Shown in pieces: positions 40,598 to 49,024 of a stretch of 64,000 nt of DNA (the first letter of the stretch is position 1; every line of letters begins with the position of its first letter). This DNA comes from Shigella phage ESH35. The stretch is from the sequence record ON528745; one strand, written 5' to 3'. Made by a program: the position numbers and the translations under genes. The notes beneath the pieces were generated by a model that made no database searches, was not told the origin of the DNA, and was given only the letters and a program-made list of their open reading frames with translations.

Positions 40598-40909
40598 ATG
40601 GTTTATGTATATGCGATAGTTTACCGAGACAAAGACGGATTTACGGCGCCAGTTCCACTTGATGAACATCGTCCTGCTGTGTTTTTTGAAAGAGAGATTG
40701 CTGATAGAGTTTTTACTACTCTCAAAGACCAATATAAACTAGCTTTAGGTATGGGAATTCCAAGACTAGTTGAGACTCCACGCAAGTTTTGGTTTAATAA
40801 AATAGAAGTTAAACATGTTAAGCCTGATGTAGATACACAAAGATTATATCAACGAATTCTAGATACTGGGCGTATTGTTAGTATTCCAATTGCAGGGACT
40901 TTCCGATGA
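40598..40909 (+). CDS. hypothetical protein (dda.1 position)
   Basis: 103-aa ORF overlapping dda start. Confidence 0.45.
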   Translation: MVYVYAIVYRDKDGFTAPVPLDEHRPAVFFEREIADRVFTTLKDQYKLALGMGIPRLVETPRKFWFNKIEVKHVKPDVDTQRLYQRILDTGRIVSIPIAGTFR

Positions 40910-42225
40910 CATTTGATGATTTGACAGAAGGCCAGAAAAACGCCTTTAACATCGTTATGAGGGCTATTAAAGAAAAGAAACATCATGTAACTATTAATGG
41001 ACCTGCTGGTACTGGTAAGACTACTCTTACTAAGTTCATCATTGAAGCTTTAATATCAACAGGCGAAACTGGTATCATTTTGGCAGCTCCTACACATGCA
41101 GCTAAAAAGATTCTTTCAAAACTGTCGGGGAAAGAAGCGAGTACTATTCACAGCATTCTTAAAATTAACCCGGTAACATATGAAGAAAATGTTCTTTTTG
41201 AACAGAAGGAAGTACCAGATTTAGCTAAATGCAGGGTATTAATCTGCGATGAAGTGTCAATGTATGATAGAAAGCTATTTAAAATTCTGCTTTCAACTAT
41301 TCCACCTTGGTGTACTATAATTGGAATAGGGGATAATAAGCAAATTAGACCTGTTGATCCAGGAGAAAATACTGCTTATATCAGTCCATTCTTTACACAC
41401 AAAGATTTTTATCAGTGTGAACTTACTGAAGTTAAACGCAGTAATGCTCCTATTATTGATGTAGCTACTGATGTTCGTAACGGTAAGTGGATTTATGATA
41501 AAGTTGTTGACGGGCATGGAGTACGTGGATTTACTGGTGATACCGCTTTACGCGATTTTATGGTAAATTATTTTTCAATCGTCAAATCGCTAGATGATTT
41601 GTTTGAAAATCGCGTAATGGCATTTACGAATAAATCTGTTGACAAGTTAAACAATATTATTCGCAAAAAGATTTTTGAAACTGATAAAGATTTTATTGTC
41701 GGTGAAATTATTGTAATGCAAGAACCGTTAATTAAAACATATAAAATTGATGGAAAGCCTGTATCAGAAATTATTTTTAATAACGGACAATTAGTTCGTA
41801 TTATAGAAGCAGAGTATACATCGACGTTTGTTAAAGCTCGTGGTGTTCCTGGAGAATATCTAATTCGTCATTGGGATTTAACAGTAGAAACTTACGGTGA
41901 TGATGAATATTATCGTGAAAAGATTAAAATAATTTCATCTGATGAAGAGTTATATAAGTTTAACCTATTTTTAGGTAAAACGGCAGAAACTTATAAAAAT
42001 TGGAACAAAGGCGGAAAAGCTCCGTGGAGTGATTTTTGGGATGCTAAATCACAGTTCAGTAAAGTGAAAGCACTTCCTGCATCAACATTCCATAAAGCTC
42101 AGGGTATGTCTGTAGACCGTGCTTTCATTTATACGCCTTGTATTCATTATGCAGATGCTGAATTAGCTCAACAACTTCTTTATGTTGGTGTTACCCGTGG
42201 TCGTTATGACGTATTTTATGTGTGA
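40906..42225 (+). CDS. dda: Dda DNA helicase (SF1)
   Basis: 439 aa; Walker A GPAGTGKTT, Walker B LICDEVSM. Confidence 0.92.
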   Translation: MTFDDLTEGQKNAFNIVMRAIKEKKHHVTINGPAGTGKTTLTKFIIEALISTGETGIILAAPTHAAKKILSKLSGKEASTIHSILKINPVTYEENVLFEQKEVPDLAKCRVLICDEVSMYDRKLFKILLSTIPPWCTIIGIGDNKQIRPVDPGENTAYISPFFTHKDFYQCELTEVKRSNAPIIDVATDVRNGKWIYDKVVDGHGVRGFTGDTALRDFMVNYFSIVKSLDDLFENRVMAFTNKSVDKLNNIIRKKIFETDKDFIVGEIIVMQEPLIKTYKIDGKPVSEIIFNNGQLVRIIEAEYTSTFVKARGVPGEYLIRHWDLTVETYGDDEYYREKIKIISSDEELYKFNLFLGKTAETYKNWNKGGKAPWSDFWDAKSQFSKVKALPASTFHKAQGMSVDRAFIYTPCIHYADAELAQQLLYVGVTRGRYDVFYV

Positions 42226-42724: not shown

Positions 42725-42959
42725 ATTAAGTTGGTATCAGTTTAAATCTCTTATGGCAAATGTTAAAGCTGTCATTGAAGAAAATCCAGGACCTGAAAAT
42801 GTAACTATTCGTGAAAAAGCTTCAAAGATAGTATACAGTCTTGAAGAGATGCAAAAAGATATTGAATCTATGGCAAAATTTATTGATGAGCCCATTAATA
42901 AAGTTTATATCCAAGATTATACTGTAGGTCAAATTCGCGATTTAGCGAGGAAAGTTTAA
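42717..42959 (+). CDS. hypothetical protein (paralog triplet 3)
   Basis: 80-aa ORF; C-terminal ..DYTVGQIRDLARKV similar to previous ORF. Confidence 0.45.
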   Translation: MIELSWYQFKSLMANVKAVIEENPGPENVTIREKASKIVYSLEEMQKDIESMAKFIDEPINKVYIQDYTVGQIRDLARKV

Positions 42960-43642
42960 TGTTTGATTTTATTATAGATTTTGAAACGATGGGAAGCGGT
43001 GAAAAAGCAGCTGTTATTGATTTGGCTGTAATTGCTTTTGACCCTAACCCGGAAGTTGTTGAAACATTCGATGAACTAGTTTCACGTGGCATTAAAATTA
43101 AATTTGACTTAAAAAGTCAAAAAGGACATCGTCTTTTTACTAAAAGCACTATCGAATGGTGGAAGAATCAATCTCCTGAAGCTAGAAAAAATATTGCACC
43201 ATCAGATGAAGATGTAAGCACTATCGATGGTATTGCAAAATTCAATGATTACATCAATGCACATAACATCGATCCTTGGAAATCTCAAGGTTGGTGCCGT
43301 GGAATGTCGTTTGATTTTCCAATTTTAGTCGATCTCATTCGCGATATTCAACGTCTTAACGGCGTTTCCGAGAATGAGCTTGATACATTTAAGTTAGAAC
43401 CGTGTAAATTCTGGAATCAACGCGACATTCGTACTAGAATTGAAGCACTTCTCCTTGTTCGTGATATGACCACTTGTCCTCTTCCAAAGGGAACTTTAGA
43501 TGGATTCGTTGCACATGATTCTATTCATGACTGTGCGAAAGACATCCTGATGATGAAGTATGCTTTGCGATACGCTATGGGTCTTGAAGATGCTCCGTCA
43601 GAGGAAGAGTGCGATCCTCTGTCTCTTCCAACAAAACGATAA
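42959..43642 (+). CDS. dexA: exonuclease A DexA (DEDDh 3'-5' exonuclease)
   Basis: 227 aa; N-terminal DFETMG motif; length and position match T4 DexA. Confidence 0.8.
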   Translation: MFDFIIDFETMGSGEKAAVIDLAVIAFDPNPEVVETFDELVSRGIKIKFDLKSQKGHRLFTKSTIEWWKNQSPEARKNIAPSDEDVSTIDGIAKFNDYINAHNIDPWKSQGWCRGMSFDFPILVDLIRDIQRLNGVSENELDTFKLEPCKFWNQRDIRTRIEALLLVRDMTTCPLPKGTLDGFVAHDSIHDCAKDILMMKYALRYAMGLEDAPSEEECDPLSLPTKR

Positions 43643-43705
43643 AAAGTTGTTTACTTCCTCGGTTAGTTGTGGTATTATAACACCATAGCTACTGAGGATA
43701 ATAAA

Positions 43706-44218
43706 ATGAAAATTTATCGTGTTGAATCATCGTTTAGCGCATTAAATGATGATAGTGGTATAATGAAAATTAGGCAAGAGTTATGTGTTCAATCAACTCC
43801 TTATCGTGGATTTGATTCTATGAAAACTCGAACTTGGCTAAAATTTTGCGGTATTAATTCATCGTCATTTCATCATCATAGCGATAATTATGAAAGCCAT
43901 GAAAGTATTCCTATTCCACACGATGATAAGTTATTAGTTGAAAATGCTAATGATGCTATTAAAACTAAATGGAATAAAGATTATTCACGAATTGAAAATT
44001 ATATTCCATTGTGGTTTATTGCATTATATCATTTTGCTTTCGCTAGTGAATATGATATAATGAGATGGTTTACTCGAGAAGAGCGTGAAGACTTAAAAGA
44101 TCGTGGAATGTACATTGCGATTTATGAAGTGCCAGATGATCAAGTTATCATTGGTGGGCATCAAGTAATGTTTCGCAAATCGCATGCCGAATTAAAAGGC
44201 TTTATTACCTTAGATTAA
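43706..44218 (+). CDS. hypothetical protein (motB-region)
   Basis: Track ORF 43667 trimmed to ATG after GAGGATAATAAA; 170 aa. Confidence 0.5.
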   Translation: MKIYRVESSFSALNDDSGIMKIRQELCVQSTPYRGFDSMKTRTWLKFCGINSSSFHHHSDNYESHESIPIPHDDKLLVENANDAIKTKWNKDYSRIENYIPLWFIALYHFAFASEYDIMRWFTREEREDLKDRGMYIAIYEVPDDQVIIGGHQVMFRKSHAELKGFITLD

Positions 44219-44227
44219 AGGAAAATT

Positions 44228-44728
44228 ATGATTAAAATTAATACTACGTATCAAATGAAAAAACCATCTGAAATTGATTTCCAGACAATGTCGAATACGA
44301 CTGATAGCAAGTTTTGGGAACTTCTTGGTACAACTGGCGGATATCCTTTTACTGTTATTAGTGTTAATAGCGGAATTCTCATTGGTACAGTGTACATGGA
44401 AATTAGAAACTATTATGGAAGGGTATCATCATTCATCATCTATGAAGAAGATTTCAATTTATTGACAGAAATTGAAAAAGAAGAACAAGAAAAATCCCAT
44501 ATTGATATGGATTTAGTTTCTATGTATGTAACACCAGTTGAAAAAATTGAAGACCCGACTGATTTGTTGTGTAAGGCAGTTTATATTCGTCGTCCATTCG
44601 CGAATCCGATTGGCGGTTGGGTAACTGATCAGTGGATTGAAGATGGTGTTGAACTTCTGAACGTAGTTCATGCTGGAGAGTACTCTGTAGTTCCTCGCAG
44701 CGCAGTGATTAATGTTCGTGTAAGCTAG
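44228..44728 (+). CDS. hypothetical protein (paralog pair A)
   Basis: 166 aa; C-terminal motif VTDQWIEDGVELLNVVHAGEYSVVP. Confidence 0.5.
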   Translation: MIKINTTYQMKKPSEIDFQTMSNTTDSKFWELLGTTGGYPFTVISVNSGILIGTVYMEIRNYYGRVSSFIIYEEDFNLLTEIEKEEQEKSHIDMDLVSMYVTPVEKIEDPTDLLCKAVYIRRPFANPIGGWVTDQWIEDGVELLNVVHAGEYSVVPRSAVINVRVS

Positions 44729-44801
44729 TTTACAAACTCTTGGGATCAGAGTATAATGGTCCTGCGGAGTATAAAATCTTTTTAACAAGTGAGAGATAAT
44801 T

Positions 44802-45293
44802 ATGAATATTAATATCGGTGAAATTGCTCGTGTATCTGATAAATCCCGTTCTAAAGCAGCAGGAAAATTGGTTGAAGTCGTAAGCATTCAGCTTAAACAT
44901 GGTGTTAAAGATGAAGATTCTGAAGTAAAAGTGCGTATCATTCCTAAAGATGGAATGTCTAAACCTCAGTTTGGTTATGTTCGATGGAAATTTCTTGAGC
45001 CTGCGTTTTTGAAAGCTGTTCCCGCTAAAGGAATTGAAACGATTGATACTTCGCATGTAGGTGTAGACTTTAAGTGGAAACTTGGTCAAGCTATCAAGTT
45101 CGTTGCTCCTTATGAGTTTGAATTTACTGAAGGTGAGGAAGGTGTTGTTAACCGTACTCGCGCTATGTGTGCATACATTACTGATCAATGGGTAGAAGAT
45201 GGCGTTAAGTTATACAACGCGGTATTTTTAGGAACATACAAAGTCATTCCTGAAAGTTGGATTAAACACTACAGCAAAGCTCGCTATGCATAA
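44802..45293 (+). CDS. hypothetical protein (paralog pair B; MotB-sized)
   Basis: 163 aa; C-terminal motif ITDQWVEDGVKLYNAVFLGTYKVIP shared with previous ORF. Confidence 0.5.
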   Translation: MNINIGEIARVSDKSRSKAAGKLVEVVSIQLKHGVKDEDSEVKVRIIPKDGMSKPQFGYVRWKFLEPAFLKAVPAKGIETIDTSHVGVDFKWKLGQAIKFVAPYEFEFTEGEEGVVNRTRAMCAYITDQWVEDGVKLYNAVFLGTYKVIPESWIKHYSKARYA

Positions 45294-45310
45294 AGTTTAA
45301 TTTTTTTTTC

Positions 45311-45391
45311 ATAAAACTATATACATCAGTAGTTGATTATGGTACTATATCAATATCAACTACTGATACAGAAAACAACTTGGAGAATAAA
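45311..45391 (+). promoter_or_regulatory. promoter/leader cassette copy C (degenerate -35, 11-bp inverted repeat)
   Basis: CAGTAGTTGAT...TATGGTACTATATCAAT...ATCAACTACTGATACAGA; same downstream leader as copy B. Confidence 0.5.
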
Positions 45392-45661
45392 ATGGAAAAC
45401 TTAATTATCATCGAGCAATCTTTCAACGATTATGGTATGGCTTACGGTTATCGTGCGATAATGGAAGATTCTCGTGGATGTGTTATCGATATTGCTGAAT
45501 GTAAAGATTTACTGCAGCTTTTGAAGATTGTTCGCAAAAATTGGGATTGTGAAAACATTAAAGCTCGTGTTGTTACAGAAGAAGAAACTGTTTTTCATGA
45601 TGTAAAATTCGCTAAAGGTGCTGCTACTCTTCTGAAACGTATCGCTCCACTGTTCAATTAA
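45392..45661 (+). CDS. hypothetical protein
   Basis: Track ORF 45380 (TTG) trimmed to ATG after GGAGAATAAA, same leader as ORF 26860. Confidence 0.5.
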   Translation: MENLIIIEQSFNDYGMAYGYRAIMEDSRGCVIDIAECKDLLQLLKIVRKNWDCENIKARVVTEEETVFHDVKFAKGAATLLKRIAPLFN

Positions 45662-45674
45662 TGAGGAAATTGTA

Positions 45675-45890
45675 ATGAAACGTAAAATTGTTCAGAATTG
45701 CACTAATGACGAATTTGAAGATGTATTATTTGATCCAGATTTGGTAGTGGTTCAAAAGGAACATACCGTTAAGTTTACTCACTTGACTTCGGTTTATGTG
45801 TATGAAAAGGTTGGTGATAAACAACCAATTTACGGTGTATTTCGTGAAATTACTGAAGATGGCACAACTTACTGGAAGGAAATTTATTAA
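45675..45890 (+). CDS. hypothetical protein
   Basis: 71-aa ORF. Confidence 0.45.
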
Positions 45891-46317: not shown

Positions 46318-46494
46318 ATGCCAACGTATGATTATAAATGCCAATCCGAAGATTGCGGGCATGAATATGAAAAAATTAAAAAGATTTCTGAACGAGAAAA
46401 TGATGTTTGCCCTAAATGTCATCGTTTGTCTACTCGTCGGCCTTCTGCTCCTAAGCATGTGAATGGCGGTTTTTACGATTTACTTAAAGGGTGA
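46318..46494 (+). CDS. small zinc-ribbon protein
   Basis: Not in track; about 58 aa; YDYKCQSEDCGH..CPKCH CxxC..CxxC. Confidence 0.35.
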   Translation: MPTYDYKCQSEDCGHEYEKIKKISERENDVCPKCHRLSTRRPSAPKHVNGGFYDLLKG

Positions 46495-46496
46495 TT

Positions 46497-46871
46497 ATGT
46501 TTAAAATCGGTAAGAAATATCGTGTTCGCGAAGGTGAAGAAAAGAAATATCTACTTTCTGCTAGTAATAGGAATGGTTCTATTAATGCCGTAATATCTAC
46601 AAGCGAATTTATCGTTGAAGATATGAAAGGTCATAATGTTACAATGATTAGTACAGCAACTAGCAGAAATGCTGGAAAAATTCTTCACAGTCTGCGGAGT
46701 GAAGTTCTAATTTATGATGAAGAATTTGACTTCTTCGAAGAAGTTCCTGAAGATTTTGATTTTGAATGCACTATCACTATGAAATCTGGTGACCCTCTTT
46801 CTTTTACAGTTAAAGATGAAAGAAGCCGTTTGAGAATTATTAGTCTCCTTCAAGCCATTAAATTTAAGTGA
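46497..46871 (+). CDS. hypothetical protein
   Basis: Track ORF 46491 (GTG) trimmed to ATG. Confidence 0.45.
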   Translation: MFKIGKKYRVREGEEKKYLLSASNRNGSINAVISTSEFIVEDMKGHNVTMISTATSRNAGKILHSLRSEVLIYDEEFDFFEEVPEDFDFECTITMKSGDPLSFTVKDERSRLRIISLLQAIKFK

Positions 46872-47160: not shown

Positions 47161-47206
47161 ATGATTGCCGGAGTATAATATTCCCGAAACCAAACGAGGA
47201 TAAGTG

Positions 47207-49024
47207 ATGATTAAGAATGAAATTAAAATTCTGAGCGATATTGAACATATCAAAAAGCGTAGCGGCATGTATATTGGCTCTTCTGCTAATGAAATGCATG
47301 AGCGCTTTCTGTTTGGTAAATGGGAAAGTGTTCAGTATGTACCTGGTCTTGTTAAGCTTATTGATGAAATTATCGATAACTCAGTAGATGAAGGTATTCG
47401 TACTAAGTTTAAATTCGCGAATAAAATTAATGTTACCATTAAAGATAATCAGGTAACAGTTGAAGATAACGGTCGCGGTATTCCACAAGCGATGGTTAAA
47501 ACACCTACTGGTGAAGAAATTCCTGGTCCTGTTGCTGCCTGGACTATTCCAAAAGCAGGTGGTAACTTCGGTGATGATAAAGAACGCGTCACCGGTGGTA
47601 TGAATGGTGTTGGTTCTAGTTTGACAAACATTTTTTCTGTGATGTTTGTCGGTGAAACTGGCGATGGTCAAAATAATATTGTAGTTCGTTGTTCAAATGG
47701 TATGGAAAATAAATCCTGGGAAACTATTCCTGGAAAATGGAAAGGAACTCGTGTTACTTTCATTCCTGATTTTATGTCATTTGAAACTAATGAGCTGTCT
47801 CAGGTTTATCTTGACATTACACTGGACCGTCTCCAGACACTTGCTGTCGTTTATCCTGATATTCAATTTACTTTTAATGGTAAAAAGGTTCAGGGCAATT
47901 TTAAGAAATATGCACGACAGTATGATGAACATGCTATTGTTCAAGAACAAGAAAATTGTTCTATTGCGGTTGGTCGTTCACCGGATGGTTTTCGTCAATT
48001 AACTTACGTGAATAACATTCATACTAAGAATGGTGGCCATCACATTGACTGTGTTATGGATGATATTTGCGAAGACCTTATTCCACAAATCAAACGTAAA
48101 TTCAAAATTGATGTAACTAAAGCACGCGTTAAAGAATGTTTGACTATCGTTATGTTTGTTCGTGATATGAAAAACATGCGATTTGATTCTCAAACTAAAG
48201 AGCGTTTGACTTCTCCATTTGGCGAAATTCGTAGTCATATTCAACTTGATGCTAAAAAGATTTCACGCGCTATTCTAAATAATGAAGCAATTCTGATGCC
48301 GATTATTGAAGCTGCGTTGGCTCGTAAATTGGCGGCAGAAAAAGCAGCAGAAACTAAAGCAGCTAAAAAGGCTTCTAAAGCTAAGGTTCATAAACATATC
48401 AAAGCGAATCTTTGTGGTAAAGATGCTGACACTACTCTTTTCTTGACTGAGGGTGATTCTGCTATCGGATATCTTATTGATGTTCGTGATAAAGAACTTC
48501 ATGGTGGTTATCCATTGCGTGGTAAAGTTCTTAACAGCTGGGGTATGTCATATGCTGATATGCTTAAAAACAAAGAACTATTTGATATTTGCGCAATCAC
48601 TGGATTAGTTCTTGGTGAAAAAGCTGAAAACTTGAATTATCATAATATTGCTATTATGACCGATGCTGACCATGATGGTCTAGGAAGCATTTATCCTTCT
48701 CTGCTCGGGTTTTTTAGTAATTGGCCAGAATTGTTTGAGCAAGGACGAATTCGCTTTGTCAAAACTCCTGTAATCATCGCTCAGGTCGGTAAAAAACAAG
48801 AATGGTTTTATACAATCGCTGAATATGAGAGTGCCAAAGATGCTCTACCTAAACATAGCATCCGTTATATTAAAGGACTTGGCTCTTTGGAAAAATCTGA
48901 ATATCGTGAGATGATTCAAAATCCAGCATATGATGTTGTTAAACTTCCTGAGAACTGGAAAGAGCTTTTTGAAATGCTCATGGGAGATAATGCTGACCTT
49001 CGCAAAGAATGGATGAGCCAGTAG
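47207..49024 (+). CDS. 39: DNA topoisomerase II large subunit, fused gp39+gp60 type (GHKL ATPase + TOPRIM)
   Basis: About 605-aa single ORF (track 47204 GTG, ATG at 47207); MIKNEIKILSDIEHIKKRSGMYIGS.. recognised; longer than split T4 gp39. Confidence 0.92.
   Translation: MIKNEIKILSDIEHIKKRSGMYIGSSANEMHERFLFGKWESVQYVPGLVKLIDEIIDNSVDEGIRTKFKFANKINVTIKDNQVTVEDNGRGIPQAMVKTPTGEEIPGPVAAWTIPKAGGNFGDDKERVTGGMNGVGSSLTNIFSVMFVGETGDGQNNIVVRCSNGMENKSWETIPGKWKGTRVTFIPDFMSFETNELSQVYLDITLDRLQTLAVVYPDIQFTFNGKKVQGNFKKYARQYDEHAIVQEQENCSIAVGRSPDGFRQLTYVNNIHTKNGGHHIDCVMDDICEDLIPQIKRKFKIDVTKARVKECLTIVMFVRDMKNMRFDSQTKERLTSPFGEIRSHIQLDAKKISRAILNNEAILMPIIEAALARKLAAEKAAETKAAKKASKAKVHKHIKANLCGKDADTTLFLTEGDSAIGYLIDVRDKELHGGYPLRGKVLNSWGMSYADMLKNKELFDICAITGLVLGEKAENLNYHNIAIMTDADHDGLGSIYPSLLGFFSNWPELFEQGRIRFVKTPVIIAQVGKKQEWFYTIAEYESAKDALPKHSIRYIKGLGSLEKSEYREMIQNPAYDVVKLPENWKELFEMLMGDNADLRKEWMSQ

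What the first reader, a model, noticed from the sequence alone, without database searches (positions are those of the whole stretch)
44228..45293. Paralogous pair sharing a conserved C-terminal motif in the motB region
ORFs 44228 (166 aa) and 44802 (163 aa) both end with (I/V)TDQW(V/I)EDGV(K/E)L(L/Y)N(V/A)V..G.Y.V(V/I)P. A shared C-terminal domain on different N-terminal halves suggests domain shuffling. The second ORF is MotB-sized and has its own early promoter.
Basis: seen in the sequence. Interest (0 to 1): 0.4.

Follow-up and report, generated by a model that had tools for sequence, protein, structure and literature searches.

The report
MotB and MotB.1 share one domain
Two neighbouring early genes of this T4-like phage, motB.1 and motB, do end in the same small beta-barrel domain attached to different front halves, but this was published in 2021, so the finding is real and ordinary.

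Summary
ORF 44228-44728 (166 aa) is MotB.1 and ORF 44802-45293 (163 aa) is MotB of a Tequatrovirus, about 99% identical to phages AR1 and wV7. Their C-termini share a 29-residue core (16/29 identical, BLASTP E 9e-10, shuffle z 14). Family profiles extend the match to about 51 aligned columns (hhalign 98.3%, E 2e-14). Nothing aligns in the N-terminal halves. AlphaFold2 models give each protein two small beta-barrels joined by a disordered linker: KOW-like plus shared barrel in MotB, and an LSm-like barrel with a helix plus shared barrel in MotB.1.

The "domain shuffling" reading is supported. The same C-terminal barrel occurs behind at least five N-terminal arrangements, all in T4-like phages of enterobacteria; only 32 representatives were found among 1.84 billion proteins.

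All of this is already published: Son et al. 2021 (PMC7827196) for the shared C-terminal domain and the proposed duplication, and Kim et al. 2025 (PMC12152347) for the MotB.1 N-terminal domain.

Two minor additions come from this work. The models favour SH3-like strand order over the published OB-fold assignment. The T4 reference sequence carries one extra G that truncates MotB.1 inside the shared motif, and 13 other T4 or near-identical records lack it.

The parts
44228..44728 (+). motB.1 coding sequence (166 aa). It starts 10 nt after the motB.2 stop and has an AAGGA ribosome-binding site.
   Evidence: ORF list; phrog_2333 at 1.8e-83 over the full length; annotated motB.1 in AR1 and wV7.
44228..44479 (+). 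MotB.1 N-terminal barrel, residues 1-84. This is the published LSm-like or SH3-like domain, with a helix at residues 23-36.
   Evidence: AlphaFold2 model with pLDDT 83-90; elements E7-10, H23-36, E41-48, E54-60, E66-72, E79-82. No Pfam hit. Described in Kim 2025.
44480..44545 (+). A 22-residue insert (residues 85-106) in the disordered linker. It is absent from the 143/144-aa T4-type MotB.1. Together with the next residue (Ile107) it carries the recurrent IDxDxxSxYxxPxxP linker motif, residues 92-107.
   Evidence: Alignment A1; pLDDT below 50 at residues 85-107; motif counts in relatives.
44552..44725 (+). MotB.1 C-terminal shared barrel, residues 109-166. The hhalign-aligned part is residues 112-162 (nt 44561-44713) and the core motif is nt 44621-44695.
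   Evidence: hhalign; Pfam PF17613 profile positions 118-153, 35.6 bits; model strands E117-120, E128-138, E141-148, E151-156, a helical turn, then E160-162, with pLDDT 86-90.
44729..44757 (+). Sigma-70 / T4-early-type promoter-like site, TTTACA-17-TATAAT, in the 73-nt gap before motB.
   Evidence: 11 of 12 matches; both hexamers conserved in T4; annotated as a promoter in wV7. Activity was not tested.
44802..45293 (+). motB coding sequence (163 aa).
   Evidence: PF17613 positions 1-162 of 162, E 1.1e-96; phrog_1671 at 2.2e-76.
44802..45005 (+). MotB N-terminal KOW-like barrel, residues 1-68. It is basic, with pI 9.6.
45069..45290 (+). MotB C-terminal shared barrel, residues 90-163. The aligned part is residues 92-156 (nt 45075-45269) and the core motif is nt 45177-45251. 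A ~13-residue hairpin insert (residues 101-113, nt 45102-45140) has no counterpart in MotB.1.
   Evidence: hhalign; alignment A3; model strands E97-110, E115-132, E135-142, E145-150, a helical turn, then E154-157.

Best explanation
These are the known T4-type early genes motB.1 and motB. Each encodes a two-domain protein: an N-terminal small beta-barrel, a disordered linker, and a C-terminal small beta-barrel. The C-terminal barrel is homologous between the two. It spans about 55 residues in MotB.1 and about 70 in MotB, because MotB has a hairpin inserted between the first two strands.

The N-terminal barrels differ. MotB has a basic KOW-like barrel. MotB.1 has an acidic LSm-like barrel with a helix. 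The pair arose by an old duplication with replacement of the N-terminal module, inside a small family confined to T4-like phages in which the C-terminal barrel is the constant part and the N-terminal modules are swapped.

Function comes from the literature, not from tests here. MotB binds DNA tightly and non-specifically, co-purifies with H-NS and StpA, changes the H-NS footprint on DNA, and doubles burst size.

My inference, held with low confidence, is that the shared C-terminal barrel is the common partner-binding or self-association module. On this view the variable N-terminal barrel supplies the nucleic-acid contact: DNA for the basic KOW domain of MotB, and possibly RNA for the LSm-like domain of MotB.1. 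The confidence figure given refers to the identity, architecture and evolutionary parts. The functional split deserves roughly 0.3.
For: Identity and position in the genome:
- PF17613 matches ORF2 over its full length.
- The gene order dexA, motB.2, motB.1, motB, cef, goF, 39 is the same as in AR1, wV7 and T4.

Homology limited to the CTD.

Two-domain models with a disordered linker, pLDDT 83-93 in the barrels.

Modular family:
- KOW + long CTD: about 100 of the 225 proteins retrieved.
- LSm-like barrel + short CTD.
- Linker + 'GKTYKL' barrel + short CTD, about 180 aa.
- Forms of about 250 aa with additional N-terminal modules, some with two 'GKTYKL' barrels, before the short CTD.
- KOW + linker + short CTD in Klebsiella, Pectobacterium and Edwardsiella phages.
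- Intermediates carrying the MotB.1-type 'DPTDLL' start together with a MotB-type hairpin insert: P0233, P0236, P0237.

Age of the duplication: 57% nucleotide identity over the core, with only 12 of 29 third codon positions identical.

Restricted distribution: 32 representatives at E<=1e-3 in 1.84e9 proteins.

Charge: MotB NTD pI 9.6, MotB.1 CTD pI 5.6, whole MotB.1 pI 4.6. The invariant core TDQW-E-G--L-N is acidic and aromatic.

Literature: PMC7827196, PMC6070864, PMC12152347.
Against: - No experiment assigns DNA binding, H-NS interaction or dimerisation to either MotB domain.
- Son 2021 consider that either domain could bind DNA.
- Charge is a weak predictor, and the MotB CTD itself is mildly basic (pI 8.0).
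- T4 lacking motB.1 shows no phenotype, and MotB.1 had no effect in an RNA reporter assay. However, the expression construct followed the truncated reference ORF.
- The structure models come from shallow alignments of 18 and 24 sequences, with pTM 0.47.
Confidence: 0.93

Rival explanations
1. The shared C-terminal domain is an OB-fold nucleic-acid-binding domain, as proposed by Son et al. 2021 from HHpred hits to archaeal eIF5A. On this view both MotB and MotB.1 bind DNA or RNA through it, and the N-terminal barrels provide other contacts.
Against: - In both AlphaFold2 models the only helical turn of the CTD lies between strands 4 and 5, the SH3-like order. An OB fold has it between strands 3 and 4.
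- EF-P and IF5A themselves begin with a KOW/SH3-like domain.
- The MotB.1 CTD is acidic, pI 5.6.
Confidence: 0.25
2. The motif is a chance or low-complexity coincidence between two unrelated small proteins.
For: Only 29 residues align in the pairwise BLASTP comparison.
Against: BLASTP E 9e-10; shuffle z 14.4; hhalign 98.3% probability; Pfam gathering score passed. The motif is compositionally diverse, and its residues are invariant across both families.
Confidence: 0.01
3. The similarity reflects recent gene conversion or recombination between the adjacent genes rather than an old paralogy kept by selection.
For: The genes are adjacent and on the same strand. Deletion remnants joining motB.2 to the tail of motB.1 exist (P0243).
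Against: - Nucleotide identity over the core is only 57%.
- Third codon positions are identical at 12 of 29 sites, and 6 of the 16 identical residues use different codons.
- Both lineages are separately conserved across many genera of T4-like phages.
Confidence: 0.03

Closest known systems
T4 MotB (modifier of transcription; Pfam PF17613; phrog_1671)
   Same: ORF2 matches over its full length, with the same size, gene position and KOW + CTD architecture.
   Different: Nothing of note. Its closest database clusters are 86-95% identical; identity to T4 MotB itself was not computed.
T4 MotB.1 (phrog_2333; Category 2 of Son et al. 2021; the LSm-like fold family of Kim et al. 2025)
   Same: ORF1 matches over its full length, lies at the same position between motB.2 and motB, and has the same N-terminal barrel and MotB-type CTD.
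   Different: The window's protein has a 22-residue linker insert carrying the IDxDxxSxY motif; the 166-167-aa forms P0001-P0003 have the same insert, and the 164-169-aa forms P0027-P0029 carry a related one. The T4 reference entry is cut to 119 aa by an extra G, while the window's copy is intact.
SH3-like small beta-barrels (KOW, Tudor, chromo, PWWP, Sm/LSm)
   Different: There is no sequence-level relationship. The profile search against PDB sequences found nothing. No aromatic cage or KOW glycine motif was demonstrated in the shared CTD.
Phage antagonists of H-NS silencing (for example T7 gp5.5, Arn of T4)
   Same: MotB changes H-NS-dependent repression and the H-NS footprint on DNA.
   Different: MotB binds DNA itself and has an unrelated fold and mechanism. 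Nothing is shown for MotB.1.

Membership tests
Pfam PF17613 (MotB, modifier of transcription) | Full-length match above the gathering score (25 bits) | tested here: met
   ORF2: 321.5 bits, positions 1-162 of 162.
Pfam PF17613 (MotB, modifier of transcription) | ORF1 matches the whole model, including the KOW-like N-terminal half | tested here: not met
   ORF1 matches only profile positions 114-153, at 33.4 bits. Its NTD alone has no Pfam hit. hhalign aligns only the CTD. ORF1 therefore carries the MotB C-terminal domain but is not a MotB orthologue.
MotB.1 (T4 gene motB.1, phrog_2333) | Full-length similarity and position between motB.2 and motB | tested here: met
   phrog_2333 at 1.8e-83 over residues 1-165. 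82% identity to T4 MotB.1 over the part the reference encodes. Synteny shown.
LSm-like fold family of Tevenvirinae (GoF, MotB.1, Frd.2; Kim 2025) | N-terminal bent five-stranded antiparallel beta-sheet, with structural similarity to GoF, Frd.2 and Hfq-like proteins | tested here: met
OB-fold (cold-shock-like) for the shared CTD (Son 2021) | Five strands with the helix between strands 3 and 4, and OB proteins as nearest structural neighbours | tested here: inconclusive
KOW / SH3-like barrel for the MotB NTD | Small barrel structurally nearest to Spt5 and NusG KOW domains | tested here: met

The most novel reading that the evidence does not exclude
The shared C-terminal barrel may be an SH3-like protein-binding or self-association module, not an OB-fold DNA binder, that directs differently armed N-terminal barrels to one common target such as the H-NS/StpA-DNA complex. 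MotB would bring a DNA-binding KOW domain and MotB.1 an LSm-like domain. If so, MotB.1 works alongside MotB, and its published lack of activity partly reflects use of the truncated reference ORF.
Probability: 0.2. Interest if true: 0.35.

Novelty: already known. Interest (0 to 1): 0.12.

Why it matters
The finding matters little as a discovery. The shared domain, the differing N-terminal domains and the duplication hypothesis were published in 2021, and the MotB.1 N-terminal fold in 2025.

Two small points may be useful to people working on these proteins:
- The shared domain looks SH3-like rather than OB-like in AlphaFold2 models, and it is the invariant part of a modular family found only in T4-like phages.
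- The T4 reference MotB.1 (119 aa, "13.8 kDa") is cut off inside the shared motif by a single extra G. The 13 other near-identical records listed, 11 of them named T4 or T4T, lack that G. Constructs synthesised from the reference ORF would therefore lack most of this domain.

Tried and rejected
- **More copies in the window:** I searched for further copies of the shared domain with HMMs of both CTD types against all six-frame segments. No third copy was found.
- **Solved relatives:** a search of PDB sequences with the CTD profile found nothing; the best hit had E 1.2.
- **MotB.2:** it is unrelated to the MotB.1 profile.
- **GoF:** it is not detectably similar to the MotB.1 profile by sequence.
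- **Recent gene conversion:** rejected on codon-level divergence.
- **Terminators:** no intrinsic terminator was found in 43500-45800.
- **Weak repeat-protein hits:** the weak multi-stretch hits of the CTD profile in 600-1500-aa proteins (P0244, P0246-P0248, P0250, E 5e-6 to 9e-4) were not followed up. They look like short repeat matches rather than the domain.

Full report
**What the window is.** The region is 99% identical to Tequatrovirus phages KMB22, wV7 and AR1. The genes on the + strand run dda (40906-42225), three small ORFs, dexA (42959-43642), motB.2 (43706-44218), motB.1 (44228-44728), motB (44802-45293), a 89-93-aa ORF, cef, goF, 39.2 and then gene 39. The finding's first ORF is therefore MotB.1 and its second is MotB. 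ORF2 matches Pfam PF17613 end to end (1.1e-96) and phrog_1671. ORF1 matches phrog_2333 end to end (1.8e-83).

**Checking the observation.**
- BLASTP between the two proteins gives one significant segment: residues 130-158 against 124-152, 16/29 identical, E 9e-10.
- The Smith-Waterman score is 98, against 29.3 +/- 4.8 (maximum 52) in 2000 shuffles.
- ORF1 passes Pfam's gathering score for the motB model through this stretch alone (33.4 bits against 25).
- It also matches the PHROG MotB-like family over residues 79-162 (1.6e-15).
- I collected homologues of each protein and aligned them (A1 and A2). Profile-profile comparison gives 98.3% probability, E 2e-14. It aligns MotB.1 112-162 with MotB 92-156, with a ~13-residue insert in MotB, and aligns nothing in the N-terminal halves.
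- HMMs built from each C-terminal domain (CTD) find the other ORF (9e-11 and 1.5e-12) and no third copy anywhere in the six-frame translation of the window.

The motif is not low complexity and not chance.

**Age of the relationship.** Over the 29-codon core, nucleotide identity is 57%. Only 12 of 29 third positions agree, and 6 of the 16 identical residues use different codons. This is an old paralogy kept at the protein level, not recent conversion between neighbours.

**Architecture.** AlphaFold2 models (mean pLDDT 79.5 and 78.7; barrels 83-93; linkers below 50) show each protein as two small beta-barrels joined by a disordered linker.
- MotB.1: strands 7-10, helix 23-36, strands 41-48, 54-60, 66-72 and 79-82. 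A linker covers 85-107. The C-terminal barrel has strands 117-120, 128-138, 141-148 and 151-156, a helical turn at 157-159, and strand 160-162.
- MotB: an N-terminal barrel in residues 8-67, a linker at 70-86, then strands 97-110, 115-132, 135-142 and 145-150, a helical turn, and strand 154-157.

The shared domain is thus a five-stranded barrel. The extra residues in MotB lengthen the first hairpin.

**Domain shuffling.** Among the 225 proteins retrieved, the C-terminal barrel sits behind several different N-terminal arrangements:
- a KOW-like barrel, with the long CTD form: MotB proper;
- the T4-type MotB.1 barrel, in proteins of 143-169 aa;
- a linker motif plus a different 'GKTYKL' barrel, about 180 aa;
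- extra N-terminal modules, some with two such barrels, about 250 aa;
- in Klebsiella-type phages, a KOW-like barrel plus linker motif plus the short MotB.1-type CTD.

An exhaustive HMMER search with a CTD-only profile (A3) over 1.84 billion representatives found only 32 proteins at E<=1e-3, and 24 at E below 1e-9. The divergent ones are mostly KOW + 'xDxDVxSMY' linker + CTD. Some combine the MotB.1-type 'DPTDLL' start with a MotB-type hairpin insert (P0233, P0236, P0237). The two CTD forms are therefore ends of a continuum.

The three divergent members I checked lie in roughly 165-177-kb T4-like phages of Klebsiella, Pectobacterium, Edwardsiella, Enterobacter and Escherichia, in many records near genome position 6-9 kb. 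The likeliest history is an ancestral KOW + linker + CTD gene that was duplicated, with the N-terminal barrel replaced in the MotB.1 lineage.

**Promoter.** TTTACA-17-TATAAT at 44729-44757 matches 11 of 12 consensus positions. It lies in the 73-nt gap before motB, its hexamers are identical in T4, and it is annotated as a promoter in wV7. By contrast, motB.1 starts 10 nt after the motB.2 stop and is probably co-transcribed with it. Promoter activity was not tested here.

**What is known.** Son et al. 2021 (PMC7827196) report several things:
[quoted passage not shown] - One gene may have arisen by duplication of the other.
- Homologues fall into categories with distinct N-terminal domains (NTDs).
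- RB69 has a 29-aa remnant of the CTD.

Patterson-West et al. 2018 (PMC6070864) showed that MotB co-purifies with DNA, is toxic when expressed in E. coli, and that a motB amber mutant halves burst size. Its co-purification with H-NS and StpA and its altered H-NS footprint are reported in Son 2021. Kim et al. 2025 (PMC12152347) showed by AlphaFold3 that the MotB.1 NTD is an LSm-like or SH3-like barrel shared with GoF and Frd.2. They also found that deleting motB.1 has no phenotype.

**How it most likely works.** What is shown is the two-barrel architecture (predicted), homology restricted to the CTD, and the modularity of the family. What comes from the literature is MotB's DNA binding and its interference with H-NS.

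What follows is my inference. MotB's basic charge sits in the KOW barrel (pI 9.6). The shared barrel is near-neutral in MotB (pI 8.0) and acidic in MotB.1 (pI 5.6; whole protein 4.6), and its invariant core TDQW-E-G--L-N is acidic and aromatic. I therefore favour the shared barrel as a common partner-binding or self-association module, with the N-terminal barrels as the variable nucleic-acid-binding parts. I put this at about 0.3. The published alternative, that the CTD is itself the nucleic-acid-binding OB fold, remains open.

**Side observation on T4.** The reference T4 record (NC_000866.4, identical to AF158101.6) annotates MotB.1 as 119 aa ending ...GWVTDQWIGRWR*. Aligned with the window, it has one extra G (GGATTGGAAGAT against GGATT-GAAGAT) in the middle of the shared motif. 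The rest of the domain (EDGVELLNVVHAGEYSVVPRSAVVAILN*) is readable in the next frame.
- Only the two reference records match a 161-nt probe at 100%.
- Thirteen other records match over 160 nt, one base fewer: 11 named T4 or T4T (including T4T, KJ477684-6 and MT984581) plus RB55 and RB59.
- MT984581 and T4T annotate an intact 143-aa MotB.1.
- The 143-aa form is seen on 256 contigs (P0014).

The extra G is therefore probably a sequencing error, or a mutation particular to the stock first sequenced. The 2025 study had its genes synthesised and quotes 13.8 kDa for MotB.1. It probably expressed a form lacking most of the shared barrel.

**Verdict.** Novelty is nil, since it is already known, and interest is low.

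Noticed in passing
L003 (T4 NC_000866.4) 2292-2651, corresponding to window ~44636: The T4 reference motB.1 has one extra G inside the shared TDQWIEDG motif. This truncates the annotated protein to 119 aa (13.8 kDa). Thirteen other near-identical records (11 named T4 or T4T, plus RB55 and RB59) lack the G, and the two inspected encode an intact 143-aa protein. Published MotB.1 expression constructs were synthesised and are quoted at 13.8 kDa, the size of the truncated ORF.
   Followed up: yes
window 46491-46871 (+): A 126-aa ORF (AR1 'ar1_005'; no such ORF is annotated between 39.2 and 39.1 in T4) matches the N-terminal barrel of the MotB.1 family profile: hhalign 93.5%, E 2.3e-7, 79 columns. 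It appears to be a further member of the 'GKxY' LSm-like small-barrel family in this phage.
   Followed up: partly
window 44480-44545 (MotB.1 residues 85-106), and relatives P0031-P0060 and P0230-P0240: A recurrent linker motif, (I/T)D(F/M/T)D(V/L)xS(M/T)Yxx(P/L)xxP, precedes barrels throughout the family. In the window it lies within a 22-residue insert that T4-type MotB.1 lacks, and it is predicted to be disordered. Its role is unknown.
   Followed up: partly
window 45325-45367 (+), between motB and the next ORF: An imperfect 20-nt inverted repeat forms a stable hairpin as RNA (-21 kcal/mol, z -4.5 against shuffles). It is preceded by a run of nine T and not followed by one, so it does not fit the usual intrinsic-terminator pattern. 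It may be an RNA stability or processing element.
   Followed up: partly
P0243 (43 aa, from the representative library): This protein is the MotB.2 N-terminus (MKIYRVESSFS) fused to the last ~29 residues of the MotB.1 C-terminal barrel. It is a deletion remnant spanning motB.2 to motB.1 in some phage, comparable to the 29-aa RB69 peptide reported by Son et al. 2021.
   Followed up: no
window 47204-49024 (+): Gene 39 is a single 606-aa ORF here. In T4 the topoisomerase II large subunit is split into genes 39 and 60, as noted in the T4 annotation.
   Followed up: no
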